From an uncultured Gammaproteobacteria bacterium (lineage in GTDB: Bacteria; Patescibacteriota; Microgenomatia; Daviesbacterales; UBA10151), in the NCBI GenBank assembly GCA_964392925.1, contig CAYMRP010000001.1, forward strand, positions 229,585 to 293,584: 64,000 nucleotides of DNA. Direction: 5' to 3'. Below are positions 5,135-24,091 of this stretch, piece by piece. Position 1 is the first letter of the stretch; each line of letters begins with the position of its first letter. The notes under the pieces were generated by a model. The model was not told the DNA's origin, made no database searches, and saw only the letters and a list, made by a program, of their open reading frames with translations. The translations under genes were made by a program, and so were the position numbers.

Positions 5135-5479
5135 ATGAAAAAAGTAGTTACCGCTCAAATCCTTATTCTTCTATCAGTTATTCTTTTAGGCGCTACACTT
5201 AAATTTAATCTGGAATCTGACATCAGAATTTTTCATCGCGTATTCGGAATACTTGCAGCCTTAGTCAGTATGACAACCGCCGGATTCGCTTTTAAAACTA
5301 ATCAATCCGGCCTAATTAAAACTCTTGCAATCGGAGCGCTACTTTTAACAATCAGCGCTGCAGTCGGCGGCAGCTCTCTCGCCACTACCTCAAACTACGA
5401 CCTATCGTATGCTCAAATGTTTCTATCCGGCACCCTCGCCTTCCTCCTAACCTTGGTACTCTTTTTTAAAGTAAAGTAA
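5135..5479 (+). CDS. Small integral membrane protein (3-4 TM helices), hypothetical
   Basis: Hydrophobic segments are present throughout the ORF. No motif was recognised. Confidence 0.45.
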   Translation: MKKVVTAQILILLSVILLGATLKFNLESDIRIFHRVFGILAALVSMTTAGFAFKTNQSGLIKTLAIGALLLTISAAVGGSSLATTSNYDLSYAQMFLSGTLAFLLTLVLFFKVK

Positions 5480-20278: not shown

Positions 20279-21856
20279 CTACCCCAGCTTTTCTCTCTGA
20301 GTCCTAAGAAAGATAAACCATTGTTCGAAAAATCCAAAGATAACTTTAAAAGGAGTTTCAATAAATAAATCAAAGAAAAACAAGAAAACATTAATTTTAG
20401 AAATATTCTCTGTTAATCTTCTGCCGGCTTGAATAACCGGTACAAAGAAAAAGTCAAATAAAACTGAACCAAAACTATGCTTATCCGTTTGTAAAGAATA
20501 CATATGAGCTGTCTGATTAATGCGATAACAAATAAATGACACAATCATTAGGAAGAATATAAAAACACTTTGGCTAATAAATTTAAAATTAAGCCAGGTT
20601 AATAAATAAATAATAGTTCCCATCGAAAGAACTAATGCTGCTAGCCATAGAGCAATAAATATAAAGTTCATGACCGGATCAATTCGGGTGGCAGTTTTTC
20701 TCATTACCATTGGCTGCCAGGTATTCGCTCCAGATTCATAAATAATGGTTTTTATTTTATCCCAAATTCTCATTGAGTTTTCTCTATCTGGGGTCTTAAT
20801 AAATAATGCCGCTACAATCATTAACAAAGGCGGGAAAAGAGTATTAAGAGCAATCGAATTCCAATACACCTGACCGTAAATTAAGCTTTCAAAACTTCCT
20901 TCCACTCCCAGTCCGAAAATAGTTTTAGTCACTAAAATAAATATTACACCCCTGACAATAGCCCGGCTGACTTTTTCTCGGATATTATTATATTTTTTGG
21001 TACAGGTATTCATTACTGCCACTTTAAAGGATTCCATATTACCGACTAATTCCCGGTTCTTTCCCCGATGTTCTTTTAATATTTCTTCCAAGATATAGAA
21101 TGGAATTGATTGATTTTTAAAGAAAGTTAAAAATCTGTCTTTTAATGGATAATTTAGTTGATATTCAATCTGCTTCGAAGCCTCAACAAAACTCTCAGAT
21201 GCTTTTTCAATATTTTCCTCACTAAGCTGTCCAAAAATCTGTACAAACAAATGGTATCGCAAAAGTGGAATATCCTGGTGTGCGAATGTTCTTCTAACCG
21301 CCAAAAACACTTGTGCGTCGCGGGTTACAGTTGTGTCATCAGAGATAACGATCTTATCCTTAAAAAATTGAAACATAAAATTAGAAATAAGTTCCCGGTC
21401 TTTAGAAGGGGAGAGTACATTCTCAATCGCAGACGACATCAGGTGCAGCGTCCACTCATTCACCACGCCCTTATTAACTCGATGCTTTTTATTAACTTTA
21501 TCTTGAAGCTGCAGATAAAGCGTCATAGTTTTCTCTACTTTATCGGTGATGCTCTCTGGTATAGTTCCCTCTGGAAAATAACGAGCCCAAACTAATTCGC
21601 GGACTAAAGGCTCAGCCATTGATTTAGGATGTTCACCGAACATCATTCTCCGTTTAATAATTCTCTCTATGGCCGCTCTCAAAATTGCGTCATCATCCCG
21701 AAAATCCATCGCATTCCTGATTTTTTCGTACCAAGAAGCAACCTCAGAAACCACGGGATTAACCGAAATCATTTTGTCGTATGAATAAGTCTTGTCCTTA
21801 TCGAAGTGATTAATCAGATACTCAGATATCGGCGATAGTGTCTTTTGATTGTCCAT
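20279..21856 (-). CDS. Hypothetical protein with an about 330-aa cytoplasmic N-terminal domain and a C-terminal polytopic membrane domain
   Basis: The ORF is long and the C-terminal half carries about six hydrophobic helices. No motif was recognised. Confidence 0.5.
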   Translation of the reverse strand: MDNQKTLSPISEYLINHFDKDKTYSYDKMISVNPVVSEVASWYEKIRNAMDFRDDDAILRAAIERIIKRRMMFGEHPKSMAEPLVRELVWARYFPEGTIPESITDKVEKTMTLYLQLQDKVNKKHRVNKGVVNEWTLHLMSSAIENVLSPSKDRELISNFMFQFFKDKIVISDDTTVTRDAQVFLAVRRTFAHQDIPLLRYHLFVQIFGQLSEENIEKASESFVEASKQIEYQLNYPLKDRFLTFFKNQSIPFYILEEILKEHRGKNRELVGNMESFKVAVMNTCTKKYNNIREKVSRAIVRGVIFILVTKTIFGLGVEGSFESLIYGQVYWNSIALNTLFPPLLMIVAALFIKTPDRENSMRIWDKIKTIIYESGANTWQPMVMRKTATRIDPVMNFIFIALWLAALVLSMGTIIYLLTWLNFKFISQSVFIFFLMIVSFICYRINQTAHMYSLQTDKHSFGSVLFDFFFVPVIQAGRRLTENISKINVFLFFFDLFIETPFKVIFGFFEQWFIFLRTQREKLG

Positions 21857-21909
21857 CTCACTCTAAGATTACCATAAAACTATATGTCTGTGATATATTG
21901 TCCGTGCGT

Positions 21910-22896
21910 ATGAAAGTGTTGATAATCACCAGCGTCACCGGCGACACCAAAGGCATGTATAAGATTGATAAAAGTGACCTGAAGCAGATAAAAGAAACAG
22001 GGGCTGGCCTCAAAATTGAATCAATTACCGACCTTGATAAAAACATAAGTACAAAGATAAGCGAAGCTGAAATACTAGTTAGCTCAGATTTATCACTTTT
22101 AAACTCAGATAATACAAAAAATCTTAAATGGGTTCATATCACCTCAGCCGGCACCAATAAAGTCCCTGATTTTCTAAGAAAATCCAAAATAATAATTACT
22201 AATTCTTCCGGAGTCCATCCAATTCCAATTGCTGAACACGTTTTCGGTTTTATAATTATGTTATCCCGAAATATTCATAAATCATTACGGCAGCAAATAA
22301 CCTTTAAAAAATGGAGTCGTTCTTATGAGTATTTCCACCCCGAAGAGTTATCTGGCAAATCAATTTTAATAGTAGGTATGGGGAGAATTGGTGAAAAAAT
22401 TGCAGAAATCGCCAAAGTCTTCGGTATGGAAGTCACAGCCGTTGTTAGAAATCTGACTAAGAAAAGAAAGACATCTCTAAAGCTTTTTATATTAAAAGAT
22501 TTAGATAAAGCAGTTAGAACTGCCGATTTTGCAATTAATTGTCTTCCCGAAACTGATGAAACCAAAGATATTTTTGACAAAAAAATATTCAGTAAATTTA
22601 AGCAAACTGCTTATTTTATAAATATTGGCCGGGGAACAACAGTTGTTGAAAAGGATCTGGAAAATGCTCTAGAAAAAAATACCATTGCCGGAGCCGGTCT
22701 AGATGTCTTCGCAAAAGAGCCTCTGTCCTCTGACTCAAAATTATGGAATCTAGAAAACGTCATCATAACTCCTCATTACTCAGGTTGGACTCCAAATTAT
22801 ACAAAAAGAGTTCTCGATATATTCTGCATCAATCTAAAAGCCTATCTTCGAGGTAGTAAAATGCCAAATTTAATCAATAAAGAGCTAGGATACTAA
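21910..22896 (+). CDS. D-isomer-specific 2-hydroxyacid dehydrogenase family (NAD-binding)
   Basis: The Rossmann motif is GMGRIGEKIA. FINIGRGTTV and ITPHYSGWT are typical of the D-2-hydroxyacid dehydrogenase catalytic domain. The ORF track starts at 21838 with a non-ATG codon and overlaps the neighbouring gene, so I prefer the ATG at 21910 (MKVLIIT). Confidence 0.8.
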   Translation: MKVLIITSVTGDTKGMYKIDKSDLKQIKETGAGLKIESITDLDKNISTKISEAEILVSSDLSLLNSDNTKNLKWVHITSAGTNKVPDFLRKSKIIITNSSGVHPIPIAEHVFGFIIMLSRNIHKSLRQQITFKKWSRSYEYFHPEELSGKSILIVGMGRIGEKIAEIAKVFGMEVTAVVRNLTKKRKTSLKLFILKDLDKAVRTADFAINCLPETDETKDIFDKKIFSKFKQTAYFINIGRGTTVVEKDLENALEKNTIAGAGLDVFAKEPLSSDSKLWNLENVIITPHYSGWTPNYTKRVLDIFCINLKAYLRGSKMPNLINKELGY

Positions 22897-22897
22897 T

Positions 22898-22966
22898 GTC
22901 ATCCTGAACTTGATTCAGGATCCAGAAAATCTTAAATCTGGATTCCGTGTCAAGCACGGAATGACA
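22898..22966. repeat. Left arm of a mirror-symmetric triple stem-loop repeat flanking the GIY-YIG gene
   Basis: Three stem-loops in order: H1 atcctgaa/ttcaggat, H2 atccaga/tctggat, H3 attccgtg/cacggaat. The arm ends GGAATGACA immediately before the ATG. Confidence 0.6.
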
Positions 22967-22968
22967 AT

Positions 22969-23262
22969 ATGCAAAACAAAACCTACTTTGTTTATATCCT
23001 GGCGAGTCAGAGGAATGGCACTATTTACGTCGGAGTTACAAGTGATCTGAGACGAAGAGTTTGGGAGCATAAACACAATTTAGTCAAAGGATTTACCAAA
23101 GAATACAGCGTTCATGTTCTGGTTTATTATGAACAACACCAAGATATCGAAGAAGGAATTTTGAGAGAAAAGCAAATTAAAGCTTGGAAAAGAAAATGGA
23201 AGCTCGCCTTAATAGAAAATAATAATCCCGACTGGAAAGATTTATATAATGAAATATTCTAA
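22969..23262 (+). CDS. GIY-YIG nuclease domain protein (small, stand-alone)
   Basis: The N-terminus YFVYILASQRNGTIYVGVTSDLRRRVWEHK is the GIY-YIG motif. The 97-aa size is typical of stand-alone YhbQ-like GIY-YIG proteins. Confidence 0.85.
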   Translation: MQNKTYFVYILASQRNGTIYVGVTSDLRRRVWEHKHNLVKGFTKEYSVHVLVYYEQHQDIEEGILREKQIKAWKRKWKLALIENNNPDWKDLYNEIF

Positions 23263-23264
23263 AT

Positions 23265-23345
23265 GTCATTCCAGCGAAAGCTGGAATCCAGAAATACTAA
23301 TCTGGATCCTGAATCGAAGAGACTCCCTAGTGAGCGAGTTCAGGA
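23265..23345. repeat. Right arm of the mirror-symmetric triple stem-loop repeat (H3'-H2'-H1')
   Basis: The arm starts TGTCATTCC, the inverted copy of the left arm's terminal GGAATGACA. Three stem-loops follow: attccagc/gctggaat, atccaga/tctggat and tcctgaa/ttcagga. Confidence 0.6.
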
Positions 23346-23353
23346 TGAAAAAT

Positions 23354-24091
23354 CTAATTACCTACTGTAAAATACATTAAAGAGCTTTTTCTTCCGTCCT
23401 GAGTTGTTATCTGAAATCCGTATTGGGCTCTTGGAAGTGCTGGCAAATCAAATCTAATTTTGGATGAAGACCAATATTTGATTACACCCTTACCTGCTAA
23501 ACTTCCACCATTATAAATATCTATACTTCCGCGTCTTCCAAATTCCTGACCCTGAAAAGTTAATTCAAACTTTCCATTAACAGCCTTAATCGAATTAGAA
23601 TCCATGACCGGTTGTCCATTTTTAACGCTAAATTTCTCCTCTTCACTTTTTTGTCCATCCGACCTGATAATCTGTATTCTGTAAGATCCTTTTTTTAGCG
23701 CCGGTACTGCAGCTTTTATTTCGCTATTAGTCCAAGAAATAATTGTTGCCACTCCTGAAGAATAATTTTGATTGTAATATCTAAAATTGACCGATCCTGC
23801 ACTCCCAAAATTACTGCCGTAAATTGTAAATTCCTGCATATAATTGGCTGAGGCAGGCTCAATATCTAAAATTTCAAATTTGTTTGAAGCAGGAGTTGGG
23901 GTCGGGGTTGAAGTTGGAGACGAAGTTCCACTAGGTGTCTCGGATGGCTTTGGAGTTTTGGTCGGAAAAGGTTTTACTGAGGGAAAGCTCCCAAATCCAG
24001 GCCCAAAAGACGGAAAATCAACCGCCTTTGCAGAATTTTGAGTTGTTACAAAAGCCGATAAGATTATTAATAATACAATTAATTTAATCAT
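23354..24091 (-). CDS. Secreted protein with a PT-rich linker and two IPT/TIG-like Ig-fold domains
   Basis: A signal peptide and a TPKPSETPSGTSSPTSTPTPTP linker are followed by two repeats of the form EILDIEPASA..FTIYGSNFG and FELTFQGQEFG. Confidence 0.6.
   Translation of the reverse strand: MIKLIVLLIILSAFVTTQNSAKAVDFPSFGPGFGSFPSVKPFPTKTPKPSETPSGTSSPTSTPTPTPASNKFEILDIEPASANYMQEFTIYGSNFGSAGSVNFRYYNQNYSSGVATIISWTNSEIKAAVPALKKGSYRIQIIRSDGQKSEEEKFSVKNGQPVMDSNSIKAVNGKFELTFQGQEFGRRGSIDIYNGGSLAGKGVIKYWSSSKIRFDLPALPRAQYGFQITTQDGRKSSLMYFTVGN

What the first reader, a model, noticed from the sequence alone, without database searches (positions are those of the whole stretch)
22897..23353. GIY-YIG nuclease gene embedded between mirror-image triple stem-loop arms: a candidate miniature mobile cassette
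The 97-aa GIY-YIG gene fills the gap between two convergent genes. Both of its flanks consist of three consecutive stem-loops arranged in mirror order. On the left these are H1 (atcctgaa..ttcaggat), H2 (atccaga..tctggat) and H3 (attccgtg..cacggaat), followed by GGAATGACA and the ATG. On the right, after the TAA, TGTCATTCC is followed by H3' (attccagc..gctggaat), H2' (atccaga..tctggat, an identical stem) and H1' (tcctgaa..ttcagga). So the ORF is bracketed by 70-80-bp imperfect terminal inverted repeats whose ends (GGAATGACA/TGTCATTCC) abut the start and stop codons. This looks like a selfish GIY-YIG cassette, homing-endonuclease-like or MITE-like, rather than a housekeeping gene with ordinary terminators.
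Basis: seen in the sequence. Interest (0 to 1): 0.6.

Follow-up and report, generated by a model that had tools for sequence, protein, structure and literature searches.

The report
Ssn nuclease gene with cognate hairpins
The small GIY-YIG gene and its hairpin arms are a member of the Ssn family described in 2025, a nuclease that cuts single-stranded DNA next to its own hairpin repeats; here the unit is absent from the same site in close relatives, which supports the still unproven idea that such cassettes move.

Summary
A 97-aa single-domain GIY-YIG ORF (22969-23262) fills the gap between the stop codons of two convergent genes. It is bracketed by inverted arms: 57 of 70 positions match, far above shuffles.

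The parse needs correcting. Each arm is two oppositely oriented copies of one unit, not three hairpins. The unit is (C/T)GTC, an 8-bp stem starting with AT, a 4-5-nt loop, then CCAG. 'H2' is only the pairing of two unit tails.

This unit is already known. It is the CGTC-tagged REP of Di Nocera 2013, also called the NTS or Ssn-related motif (SRM) of Chenal et al. 2025. The protein is 57% identical (E 4e-39) to the 94-aa Neisseria gonorrhoeae SsnA-type protein, and the catalytic Tyr, Tyr and Glu align. SsnA binds the hairpin in single-stranded DNA and cuts a few nucleotides 5' of it.

So this is a new member of a known kind, apparently in a Patescibacteria-like genome.

What I add is evidence of mobility. 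Syntenic relatives have an empty site. Other relatives carry different cassettes at the same site. The closest homologues sit at other loci, with similarity ending at the unit heads. An ORF-less derivative also exists. The mechanism of movement is unknown.

The parts
22897..23353 (+). Whole cassette: SRM dimer, ssn gene, SRM dimer. It fills exactly the space between the dehydrogenase stop codon (22894-22896) and the IPT/TIG stop codon (23354-23356, - strand).
   Evidence: Sequence. The same junction is 26 nt long in L085, and the two stop codons overlap in L087 and L093.
22897..22925 (+). U1: SRM / CGTC-type REP unit, TGTC-ATCCTGAA-cttga-TTCAGGAT-CCAG. It is the outer left unit, with its head pointing away from the gene.
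   Evidence: Model R1 scores 34.4 bits, E 3e-7. An identical 29-nt unit follows the dehydrogenase stop in L088.
22938..22966 (-). U2: SRM unit on the minus strand, TGTC-ATTCCGTG-cttga-CACGGAAT-CCAG. Its head lies 2 nt from the ATG.
   Evidence: Model R1 scores 34.7 bits, E 2.6e-7.
22969..23262 (+). ssn: 97-aa single-domain GIY-YIG protein of the Ssn (SsnA-like) family. The predicted catalytic residues are Y9, Y20 and E67.
   Evidence: PF01541 at E 4.5e-15. It is 57% identical, E 4e-39, with no gaps, to the 94-aa N. gonorrhoeae protein, which has Y6, Y17 and E64.
23264..23291 (+). U3: SRM unit, TGTC-ATTCCAGC-gaaa-GCTGGAAT-CCAG. It starts 1 nt after the stop codon. It is the only unit that matches the published SRM search pattern, and it differs from the NTS consensus at 3 of 28 positions.
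   Evidence: The published pattern hits the window once, against 0.06 expected. Model R1 scores 46.7 bits, E 1e-10.
23302..23350 (-). U4: decayed SRM unit with the same stem as U1 (ATCCTGAA/TTCAGGAT). Its loop is expanded to 25 nt and its head is mutated (TTTC instead of TGTC). It probably still binds the nuclease but is no longer cut.
   Evidence: Sequence and inverted repeats I2, I5 and I17. Model R1 does not detect it. The role of the three head nucleotides in cleavage comes from PMC11893778.
21910..22896 (+). Left neighbour: D-2-hydroxyacid dehydrogenase, 328 aa as in its homologues. Its stop codon TAA abuts U1.
   Evidence: Pfam 2-Hacid_dh_C at E 1.3e-52. The homologues are 328 aa.
23354..24091 (-). 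Right neighbour: 245-aa IPT/TIG-domain protein, convergent with the dehydrogenase gene.
   Evidence: Pfam TIG at E 9e-14. Synteny is conserved in L085, L087, L092 and L093.

Best explanation
The locus is an Ssn-family cassette. A 97-aa single-domain GIY-YIG nuclease gene (an SsnA homologue) is flanked by its cognate hairpin repeats. These repeats are the Ssn-related motifs (NTS-like elements), which are the same thing as CGTC-tagged REPs.

By analogy with the characterised Neisseria and Wolbachia enzymes, the protein should recognise the hairpin only when the DNA is single-stranded. Recognition should depend on both sequence and shape. The C just 3' of the stem is critical for binding, and the GTC just 5' of the stem is critical for cutting. 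The enzyme should hydrolyse the strand a few nucleotides 5' of the TGTC head.

Predicted cut sites in this window:
- U1 directs a cut on the top strand at the dehydrogenase stop codon.
- U3 directs a cut on the top strand at the ssn stop codon.
- U2 directs a cut on the bottom strand at the ssn start codon.
- U4 has lost its head and is probably not cut.

The cassette is an insertion relative to the closest syntenic relatives, so it behaves as an IS-like unit that is gained, lost and replaced.

Shown here: protein homology, unit identity, inverted-repeat architecture, and empty versus filled sites. Inferred: the nuclease activity and its cut sites. Unknown: how the unit moves.
For: Protein:
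- PF01541 at E 4.5e-15.
- 57% identity without gaps, E 4e-39, to the 94-aa N. gonorrhoeae protein. That protein carries Y6, Y17 and E64, the residues mutated in N. meningitidis SsnA, and is itself flanked by NTS units (paper).

Units:
- U3 matches the published SRM pattern once in the window, against 0.06 expected. It differs from the NTS consensus CGTCATTCCCGCGMAVGCGGGAATCYRG at 3 of 28 positions.
- U1-U3 fit the 2013 CGTC-REP definition: tag, 8-bp stem starting AT, 4-5-nt loop, CCA tail.
- A model built from other genomes finds only U1-U3 in 64 kb.

Association across phyla:
- Units occur at 1.8 per kb within 150 nt of ssn genes, against 0.10 per kb elsewhere in the fetched loci.
- The commonest layout has one unit on each side with heads outward.
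- When units are anchored on head and tail only, 33/46 and 8/10 have perfectly complementary inner stems, with 20 different stem sequences.

Insertion:
- Empty junctions in L085/L086, L087 and L093, with conserved synteny.
- A different cassette at the same junction in L092 and L094.
- Filled and empty sites are interleaved on the dehydrogenase tree.

Other loci:
- The closest homologues, P0002 (80%) and P0003 (74%), lie near rplS. P0010 (75%) lies after the TIG gene in the opposite orientation.
- Cassettes at the two sites align only from TAT|TGTCAT to ATGACA.
- L100 lies on the same 542-kb contig as the empty site L085 and carries ssn between rnhB and the UPF0102 gene. L001 has an ORF-less fusion of both units at that junction.
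Against:
- Only one of the four units passes the published SRM search pattern.
- The window holds no dispersed units. A Neisseria-like role, which needs hundreds of genomic sites, is therefore unlikely in this genome, and the selective value of the cassette is unclear.
- There is no consistent target-site duplication. CTAA flanks the window cassette and ATAT flanks L095, but L001, L096, L092 and L100 show none.
- GIY-YIG enzymes hydrolyse DNA and form no covalent intermediate (established knowledge of the family). The nuclease alone therefore cannot do strand transfer.
- Empty versus filled patterns could also arise from repeated precise deletion rather than insertion.
- Assignment to CDD cd10448 could not be run.
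Confidence: 0.85

Rival explanations
1. A domesticated host system rather than a selfish element. As proposed for Neisseria meningitidis, the nuclease would cut incoming or exposed single-stranded DNA next to the hairpins and so modulate recombination or transformation. The flanking units would then be only regulatory or auto-targeting sites. This reading does not exclude the best explanation.
For: - SsnA lowers transformation by NTS-containing DNA about five-fold in N. meningitidis (paper).
- The gonococcal gene has units with heads toward the gene, like the window's inner U2 and U3.
- The protein is well conserved: 55-80% identity across many phyla.
Against: - The 64-kb window has no unit away from the cassette, so there are almost no genomic targets to act on.
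- The gene is missing from the same site in the closest relatives and sits at other sites in others. That pattern is typical of an accessory mobile unit.
Confidence: 0.25
2. A free-standing GIY-YIG homing endonuclease, like the phage T4 Seg proteins or I-TevI. It would cut the empty allele, and its gene would be copied in by repair.
For: - Weak hits to homing-endonuclease profiles: PHROG 314 at E 9e-4 over residues 1-37, and TIGR01453 at 23.9 bits.
- The locus shows a presence/absence polymorphism.
Against: - Both hits cover only the shared GIY-YIG core and are below cut-off (TIGR01453 cut-off 56 bits).
- At 97 aa the protein has no DNA-binding domain.
- No intron or intein context is present.
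- Characterised relatives do not cut double-stranded DNA. They cut beside the hairpin that belongs to the cassette, not an empty site.
- No relatives were found in viral contigs.
Confidence: 0.04
3. The hairpins are ordinary bidirectional transcription terminators or RNA-stabilising stem-loops for the two convergent genes, and the small ORF is an unrelated housekeeping gene.
For: - The units sit directly after stop codons.
- They fold stably as RNA, with z = -6.2 and -4.8.
- Similar unit dimers are transcribed as the small RNA WsnRNA46 in Wolbachia.
Against: - No stem followed by a T-run is found (0 terminator-like sites).
- The unpaired head (TGTC) and tail (CCAG) are conserved across phyla and are oriented, which terminators do not need.
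- The units are tied to ssn genes.
- Relatives manage with overlapping stop codons and no hairpin at all.
Confidence: 0.03

Closest known systems
Ssn family of site-specific single-stranded DNA nucleases (SsnA of Neisseria meningitidis, CDD cd10448) with NTS / Ssn-related motifs (Chenal et al., Nat Commun 2025, PMC11893778)
   Same: - A single-domain GIY-YIG protein of about 94 aa.
- 57% identity to the gonococcal protein, with the catalytic Tyr, Tyr and Glu aligned.
- An oriented hairpin unit with a (C/T)GTCAT head and a CCAG tail on both sides of the gene.
- The IS-like 'NTS-ssnA-NTS' architecture.
   Different: - The host appears to be a small AT-rich (38% GC) Patescibacteria-like genome, a group not mentioned in that paper.
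- Each flank is a dimer of units.
- Two units have CTTGA loops and stems that fail the published search pattern.
- No dispersed units occur in 64 kb, against hundreds per genome in Neisseria.
- Activity was not tested here.
CGTC-tagged REPs (Di Nocera, De Gregorio, Rocco 2013, PMC3733652), including Neisseria dRS3 and Rickettsia RPE-4 and RPE-6
   Same: - Tag CGTC or TGTC, an 8-9-bp stem starting with AT, a 4-nt loop (family 1) or 5-nt loop (families 2 to 4), and a CCA tail.
- Frequent inverted dimers that can fold into one long hairpin.
- U3 fits the 4-nt-loop type; U1 and U2 fit the 5-nt-loop type.
   Different: - That paper found no dedicated enzyme for these repeats. Here, and in the 2025 paper, they bracket a GIY-YIG gene.
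- Copy number in this window is minimal.
REP / REPIN elements with RAYT transposases, and IS200/IS605
   Same: - A small gene flanked by hairpin repeats that its product recognises as single-stranded DNA.
- Inverted repeat dimers (REPIN-like).
- ORF-less derivatives.
   Different: - The enzyme is a hydrolytic GIY-YIG nuclease, not an HUH/Y1 transposase. No covalent intermediate or strand transfer is therefore expected.
- The flanking hairpins lie on opposite strands with heads outward in most cassettes. IS200/IS605 uses both ends on one strand.
GIY-YIG homing endonucleases (I-TevI, T4 Seg proteins)
   Same: - The GIY-YIG catalytic core.
- An association with selfish DNA.
   Different: - No DNA-binding domain and no intron.
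- Relatives cut only single-stranded DNA next to a hairpin.

Membership tests
Ssn nuclease family (SsnA-like) | Single-domain GIY-YIG protein of about 94 aa with no extra domain | tested here: met
   97 aa. PF01541 covers residues 6-78 at E 4.5e-15, and there is no other Pfam hit.
Ssn nuclease family (SsnA-like) | Sequence homology to Neisseria SsnA (the paper's criterion is tblastn E < 1e-10) | tested here: met
   Tested against the 94-aa N. gonorrhoeae protein (L101 389-673): tblastn E 5e-28; BLASTP 51/90 identical, no gaps, E 4e-39. Caveat: the reference is the gonococcal protein, not the meningococcal one that was characterised. I identified it by its length, its Y6/Y17/E64 and its NTS flanks.
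Ssn nuclease family (SsnA-like) | Catalytic Tyr6, Tyr17 and Glu64 (mutation of each abolishes cleavage) | tested here: met
   Y9, Y20 and E67 of the window protein align with Y6, Y17 and E64 (residues from the paper).
Ssn nuclease family (SsnA-like) | Assignment to CDD cd10448 (GIY-YIG_unchar_3), or placement in the Ssn clade | not testable with these tools
   No CDD library is available. Indirect support: 55-68% identity to homologues from Devosia, Sphingomonas, Novosphingobium and Micavibrio, genera named as rich in these repeats in the two papers.
Ssn nuclease family (SsnA-like) | Ssn-related hairpin motifs on both sides of the gene | tested here: met
   U1 and U2 lie upstream; U3 and U4 lie downstream. 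The published pattern matches U3 only. A model from other genomes scores U1-U3 at E <= 3e-7.
Ssn nuclease family (SsnA-like) | Binds the hairpin as single-stranded DNA only and cuts a few nucleotides 5' of it | not testable with these tools
   This needs purified protein and oligonucleotides.
CGTC-tagged REP | Unpaired (C/T)GTC tag, 8-9-bp stem beginning AT, 4-5-nt loop, CCA tail | tested here: met
   U1, U2 and U3 fit exactly. U4 does not: its head is TTTC and its loop is 25 nt.
CGTC-tagged REP | Dispersed, multi-copy distribution in the genome | tested here: not met
   No unit lies outside the cassette in the 64-kb window. The rest of the genome was not available. In relatives, contigs that end inside the unit hint at more copies.
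Insertion sequence / MITE-type mobile element | Terminal inverted repeats that bound the unit | tested here: met
   The arms share 57/70 positions in inverted orientation. Similarity between cassettes at different loci stops at the heads.
Insertion sequence / MITE-type mobile element | Presence/absence at orthologous sites, and copies at different sites | tested here: met
   Empty sites: L085/L086, L087, L093. Filled sites: the window, L092, L094. Other sites: L001, L096, L095, L100.
Insertion sequence / MITE-type mobile element | Target-site duplication | tested here: inconclusive
   CTAA flanks the window cassette and would recreate both stop codons. ATAT flanks L095. No duplication is seen in L001, L096, L092 or L100.
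Insertion sequence / MITE-type mobile element | Encodes a transposase of a known class (DDE, HUH, serine or tyrosine) | tested here: not met
   The only ORF is a GIY-YIG nuclease.
GIY-YIG homing endonuclease | Nuclease core plus a DNA-binding domain, with intron, intein or phage context | tested here: not met
   Only 97 aa. TIGR01453 scores 23.9 bits against a cut-off of 56.05. PHROG 314 matches at E 9e-4 over residues 1-37 only. There is no viral relative.

The most novel reading that the evidence does not exclude
SRM-ssn-SRM cassettes may be autonomous mobile elements of a new mechanistic class. In this reading, a hydrolytic GIY-YIG single-strand nuclease makes hairpin-guided nicks at the element's ends, and host replication or repair completes the move. 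The nuclease is not a DDE, HUH, serine or tyrosine transposase. ORF-less unit dimers would be the non-autonomous (MITE/REPIN-like) derivatives. Ssn would then be the 'missing' mobilising enzyme of the CGTC-tagged REPs, including dRS3 and the Rickettsia palindromic elements RPE-4 and RPE-6.

The data here support movement of the unit but do not prove it:
- empty, filled and replaced sites;
- the same cassette at unrelated sites, with homology ending at the heads;
- an internal-deletion derivative.

The data say nothing about who catalyses the movement.
Probability: 0.3. Interest if true: 0.75.

Novelty: new member of a known kind. Interest (0 to 1): 0.33.

Why it matters
The gene and hairpins need no new explanation. 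They belong to the Ssn/SRM system, whose biochemistry was published in 2025, and the hairpin repeats were catalogued in 2013.

The small added value is comparative. In a set of closely related, tightly packed Patescibacteria-like genomes, the cassette can be seen in several states:
- present, absent or replaced at one exact junction between two stop codons;
- sitting at other loci;
- decayed to an ORF-less hairpin dimer.

The 2025 authors raised the idea of an IS-like mobile unit but did not test it, and this is the kind of evidence that idea needs. These small genomes carry few copies and have clean empty sites, so they are a convenient place to work out how such cassettes move.

Tried and rejected
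- Rfam: nothing reaches a gathering score in the region. The weak hits to WsnRNA46 and FtrB arise because those models contain the same repeat unit.
- Published SRM search pattern: it matches only U3, so I built my own model.
- A unit-like match at window 5207-5274 (-) lies inside an ORF and has a 42-nt loop and a mismatched stem. The model scores it 9.9 bits. I rejected it as chance.
- PDB sequence search: no match at E <= 0.01.
- PADLOC: no hit.
- Viral contigs: no relative.
- Exact look-up of the window protein in the assembly index: not on record.
- Supplementary files of the 2025 paper are not held, so the meningococcal SsnA sequence could not be taken from there. A gonococcal chromosome mislabelled as a plasmid in PLSDB supplied a Neisseria reference instead.
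- Target-site duplication: looked for and found inconsistent.
- Literature searches for GIY-YIG together with REP or YhbQ returned nothing. The link came through 'CGTC' and 'dRS3'. No later paper on Ssn mobility was found.
- I considered that the left and right arms might be direct rather than inverted copies. The inverted alignment scores higher, 71 against 50.

Full report
**1. The observation**

The ORF at 22969-23262 (+) encodes 97 aa and matches the Pfam GIY-YIG domain over residues 6-78 (E 4.5e-15). It lies between a D-2-hydroxyacid dehydrogenase gene that ends at 22896 and a convergent IPT/TIG gene at 23354-24091.

The motifs are not chance:
- ATCCAGA..TCTGGAT and TCCTGAA..TTCAGGA each occur twice in 64 kb, against 0.01 and 0.00 expected.
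- The two arms fold far better than shuffles, with z = -6.2 and -4.8.
- The left arm aligned to the reverse complement of the right arm shares 57 of 70 positions. The score is 71, against 26.7 +/- 5.3 for shuffles. The only large gap is about 19 nt inside one loop.
- No terminator-like stem followed by a T-run is found.

**2. A better parse of the arms**

Each arm is not three hairpins. It is two copies of one oriented unit facing each other. The unit is TGTC, an 8-bp stem beginning AT, a 4- or 5-nt loop, and then CCAG.

The four units are:
- U1, 22897-22925 (+): TGTC ATCCTGAA cttga TTCAGGAT CCAG
- U2, 22938-22966 (-): TGTC ATTCCGTG cttga CACGGAAT CCAG
- U3, 23264-23291 (+): TGTC ATTCCAGC gaaa GCTGGAAT CCAG
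- U4, 23302-23350 (-): same stem as U1, but a 25-nt loop and the head TTTC

'H2' and 'H2'' are only the tails ATCCAGA/TCTGGAT of adjacent units pairing with each other. The layout is therefore > < gene > <. U1 mirrors U4, and U2 mirrors U3.

**3. What the unit is**

Flanks of homologous genes in 84 fetched loci from many phyla showed the same unit again and again:
- The commonest layout has one unit before the start and one after the stop, with heads outward (29 of 88 genes by a strict detector).
- On inspection, most of the 38 genes with no detected unit carry head variants such as CGTCGT or the long GTCATTGCGAGG type.
- Unit density is 1.8 per kb within 150 nt of the genes and 0.10 per kb elsewhere.
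- When units are anchored on head and tail only, 33 of 46 (4-nt loop) and 8 of 10 (5-nt loop) distinct sequences have a perfectly complementary inner 6-nt stem. Twenty different stems are used, so the hairpin covaries.

The literature then identified the unit.
- Di Nocera et al. 2013 (PMC3733652) defined 'CGTC-tagged REPs' exactly this way: a CGTC or TGTC tag, an 8-9-bp stem starting AT, a 4-5-nt loop, a CCA tail and frequent inverted dimers. The class includes Neisseria dRS3 and Rickettsia RPE-4 and RPE-6. They stated that these repeats lack a dedicated enzyme.
- Chenal et al. 2025 (PMC11893778) showed that the 94-aa single-domain GIY-YIG protein SsnA of N. meningitidis (CDD cd10448) binds the NTS hairpin CGTCATTCCCGCGMAVGCGGGAATCYRG only as single-stranded DNA and cuts a few nucleotides 5' of it.
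[quoted passage not shown] In their survey, 71% of homologous genes have at least one Ssn-related motif nearby and 42% have one on both sides. They noted that the NTS-ssnA-NTS architecture looks like an insertion sequence.

**4. Membership tests**

- U3 differs from the NTS consensus at 3 of 28 positions. It is the single match of the published SRM pattern in the window (0.06 expected).
- U1 and U2 fail that hand-made pattern because of their stems and CTTGA loops. They fit the 2013 definition.
- A covariance model built from 36 units of other genomes scores U3 at 46.7 bits, U2 at 34.7 and U1 at 34.4. Nothing else in the 64 kb exceeds 11 bits.
- For the protein, PLSDB happens to hold gonococcal chromosomes labelled as plasmids. 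The hit region (L101 389-673) encodes a 94-aa protein with Y6, Y17 and E64, the residues mutated in the paper, and it is surrounded by NTS units.
- The window protein is 57% identical to that protein over 90 residues without gaps (E 4e-39). Y9, Y20 and E67 align with the catalytic residues.
- CDD assignment and enzyme activity could not be tested.
- Homing-endonuclease models match only weakly and below cut-off. There is no defence-system match and no PDB relative by sequence.

**5. Is it a mobile cassette?**

Dehydrogenase orthologues were traced to their contigs.

Empty sites, with synteny conserved (ABC transporter, 525-aa gene, dehydrogenase, TIG, Vut_1):
- L085/L086 (79% identical dehydrogenase): a 26-nt spacer.
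- L087 (84%) and L093 (69%): overlapping stop codons, ..tatTAAtt..

Filled sites:
- L092 (71%) and L094 (74%) carry, exactly after the stop codon, a different cassette. It is TGTCATCCTCGCgaacGCGGGGATCCAA, then a gene of 94 or 88 aa that is 66-67% identical to the window protein, then TTGGATCCCCGC..GCGAGGATGACA.

Contigs that stop in a unit:
- L088-L090 (74%) and L091 (72%) end inside a unit that directly follows the stop codon. In L088 it is the same 29 nt as U1.

On a neighbour-joining tree of the dehydrogenases, filled and empty sites are interleaved.

The closest homologues of the window protein are elsewhere:
- P0002 (80%) and P0003 (74%) lie upstream of rplS.
- P0010 (75%) lies after the TIG gene in the opposite orientation, with another gene between it and the dehydrogenase.
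- The L095 and L001/L096 cassettes, at unrelated sites, align from TAT|TGTCAT to ATGACA and not beyond.

On the very contig that has the empty site (L085), another ssn lies between rnhB and a UPF0102 gene (L100). At that same junction L001 has the two units fused, with the ORF deleted. This is a MITE-like derivative.

Together these results show that the unit is gained, lost, replaced and decays. Nothing here shows how. Target-site duplications are inconsistent, and a GIY-YIG hydrolase cannot by itself join DNA (established knowledge of the family).

**6. Likely mechanism in this locus**

These points are inferred from the paper:
- The protein binds extruded hairpins on single-stranded DNA.
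- U1 and U3 direct top-strand cuts, at the dehydrogenase stop codon and at the ssn stop codon.
- U2 directs a bottom-strand cut at the ssn start codon.
- U4 keeps the tail C needed for binding but has lost the GTC needed for cutting.
- With no dispersed units in 64 kb, a Neisseria-style role in restricting transforming DNA has few targets here. A largely selfish cassette is therefore the more economical reading.

**7. Verdict**

The 'selfish cassette' reading is broadly right, but 'homing-endonuclease-like' is wrong. The system is already described, so this is a new member in a probably Patescibacteria-like host. The best named hits are Daviesbacteria, Roizmanbacteria and Parcubacteria, and the window is 38% GC. 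The comparative evidence for mobility is a modest addition to what is published.

Noticed in passing
window 22878-22977 and 23237-23369: Two Rfam small-RNA families appear to be built on this repeat. The WsnRNA46 (Wolbachia) consensus is a heads-outward dimer of the unit (uGuCau...gauCcaGa ... CugGau...auGaCa). The FtrB (Francisella) consensus contains one NTS-like unit (GuCauuCcCGCGuAGGCGgGaauC). The window hits are far below the gathering scores.
   Followed up: partly
L001 2315-2369: An ORF-less derivative lies between the RNase HII and UPF0102 genes. A left unit (TATCATTCCAGCgaagGCTGGAA) is fused to 'gatttttaaTTGGATCCCTGCctgcGAAGGGATGACG'. This matches the two ends of the full cassette found at the same junction in L100 (1466-1833).
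   Followed up: partly
L088 3989-4018, L089 and L090 contig ends, L091 3490-3520: Four independent assemblies break inside, or a few nucleotides after, a unit that directly follows the dehydrogenase stop codon. This suggests the unit is multi-copy in those genomes.
   Followed up: no
L100 1320-1465: A tandem array of about five copies of a roughly 30-nt repeat (tttataagcaaagctttcaaactatg) lies immediately upstream of the left unit of the cassette.
   Followed up: no
L025 2812-4067; L072 1173-1409 and 2791-3522: Dense arrays of 10 or more alternating units lie next to ssn in a Bacteroidetes MAG and a Saccharibacteria MAG. Their loops are longer (7-11 nt). They resemble BIME-like clusters.
   Followed up: no
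L016 1582-3307; L008 370-2282: Two ssn cassettes lie within about 1.5 kb of each other on one contig. In L016 one copy is frameshifted (tblastn pieces at 1640-1765 and 1761-1922).
   Followed up: no
window 22892-22896 and 23354-23357: CTAA occurs directly outside both ends of the cassette (ggataCTAA|TGTCAT ... aaaat|CTAAttacc). A single CTAA would give the overlapping-stop arrangement seen in the empty sites L087 and L093. It may be a 4-nt target duplication or it may be chance.
   Followed up: partly
L101 (N. gonorrhoeae NZ_CP119140.1, 2.17 Mb): PLSDB lists complete gonococcal chromosomes as 'plasmids'. The SsnA-type gene there has no annotated feature in the PLSDB gene table.
   Followed up: no
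window 21838-21909: The mechanical ORF for the dehydrogenase starts at GTG 21838 (352 aa). All close homologues are 328 aa, which points to the ATG at 21910 as the real start.
   Followed up: no
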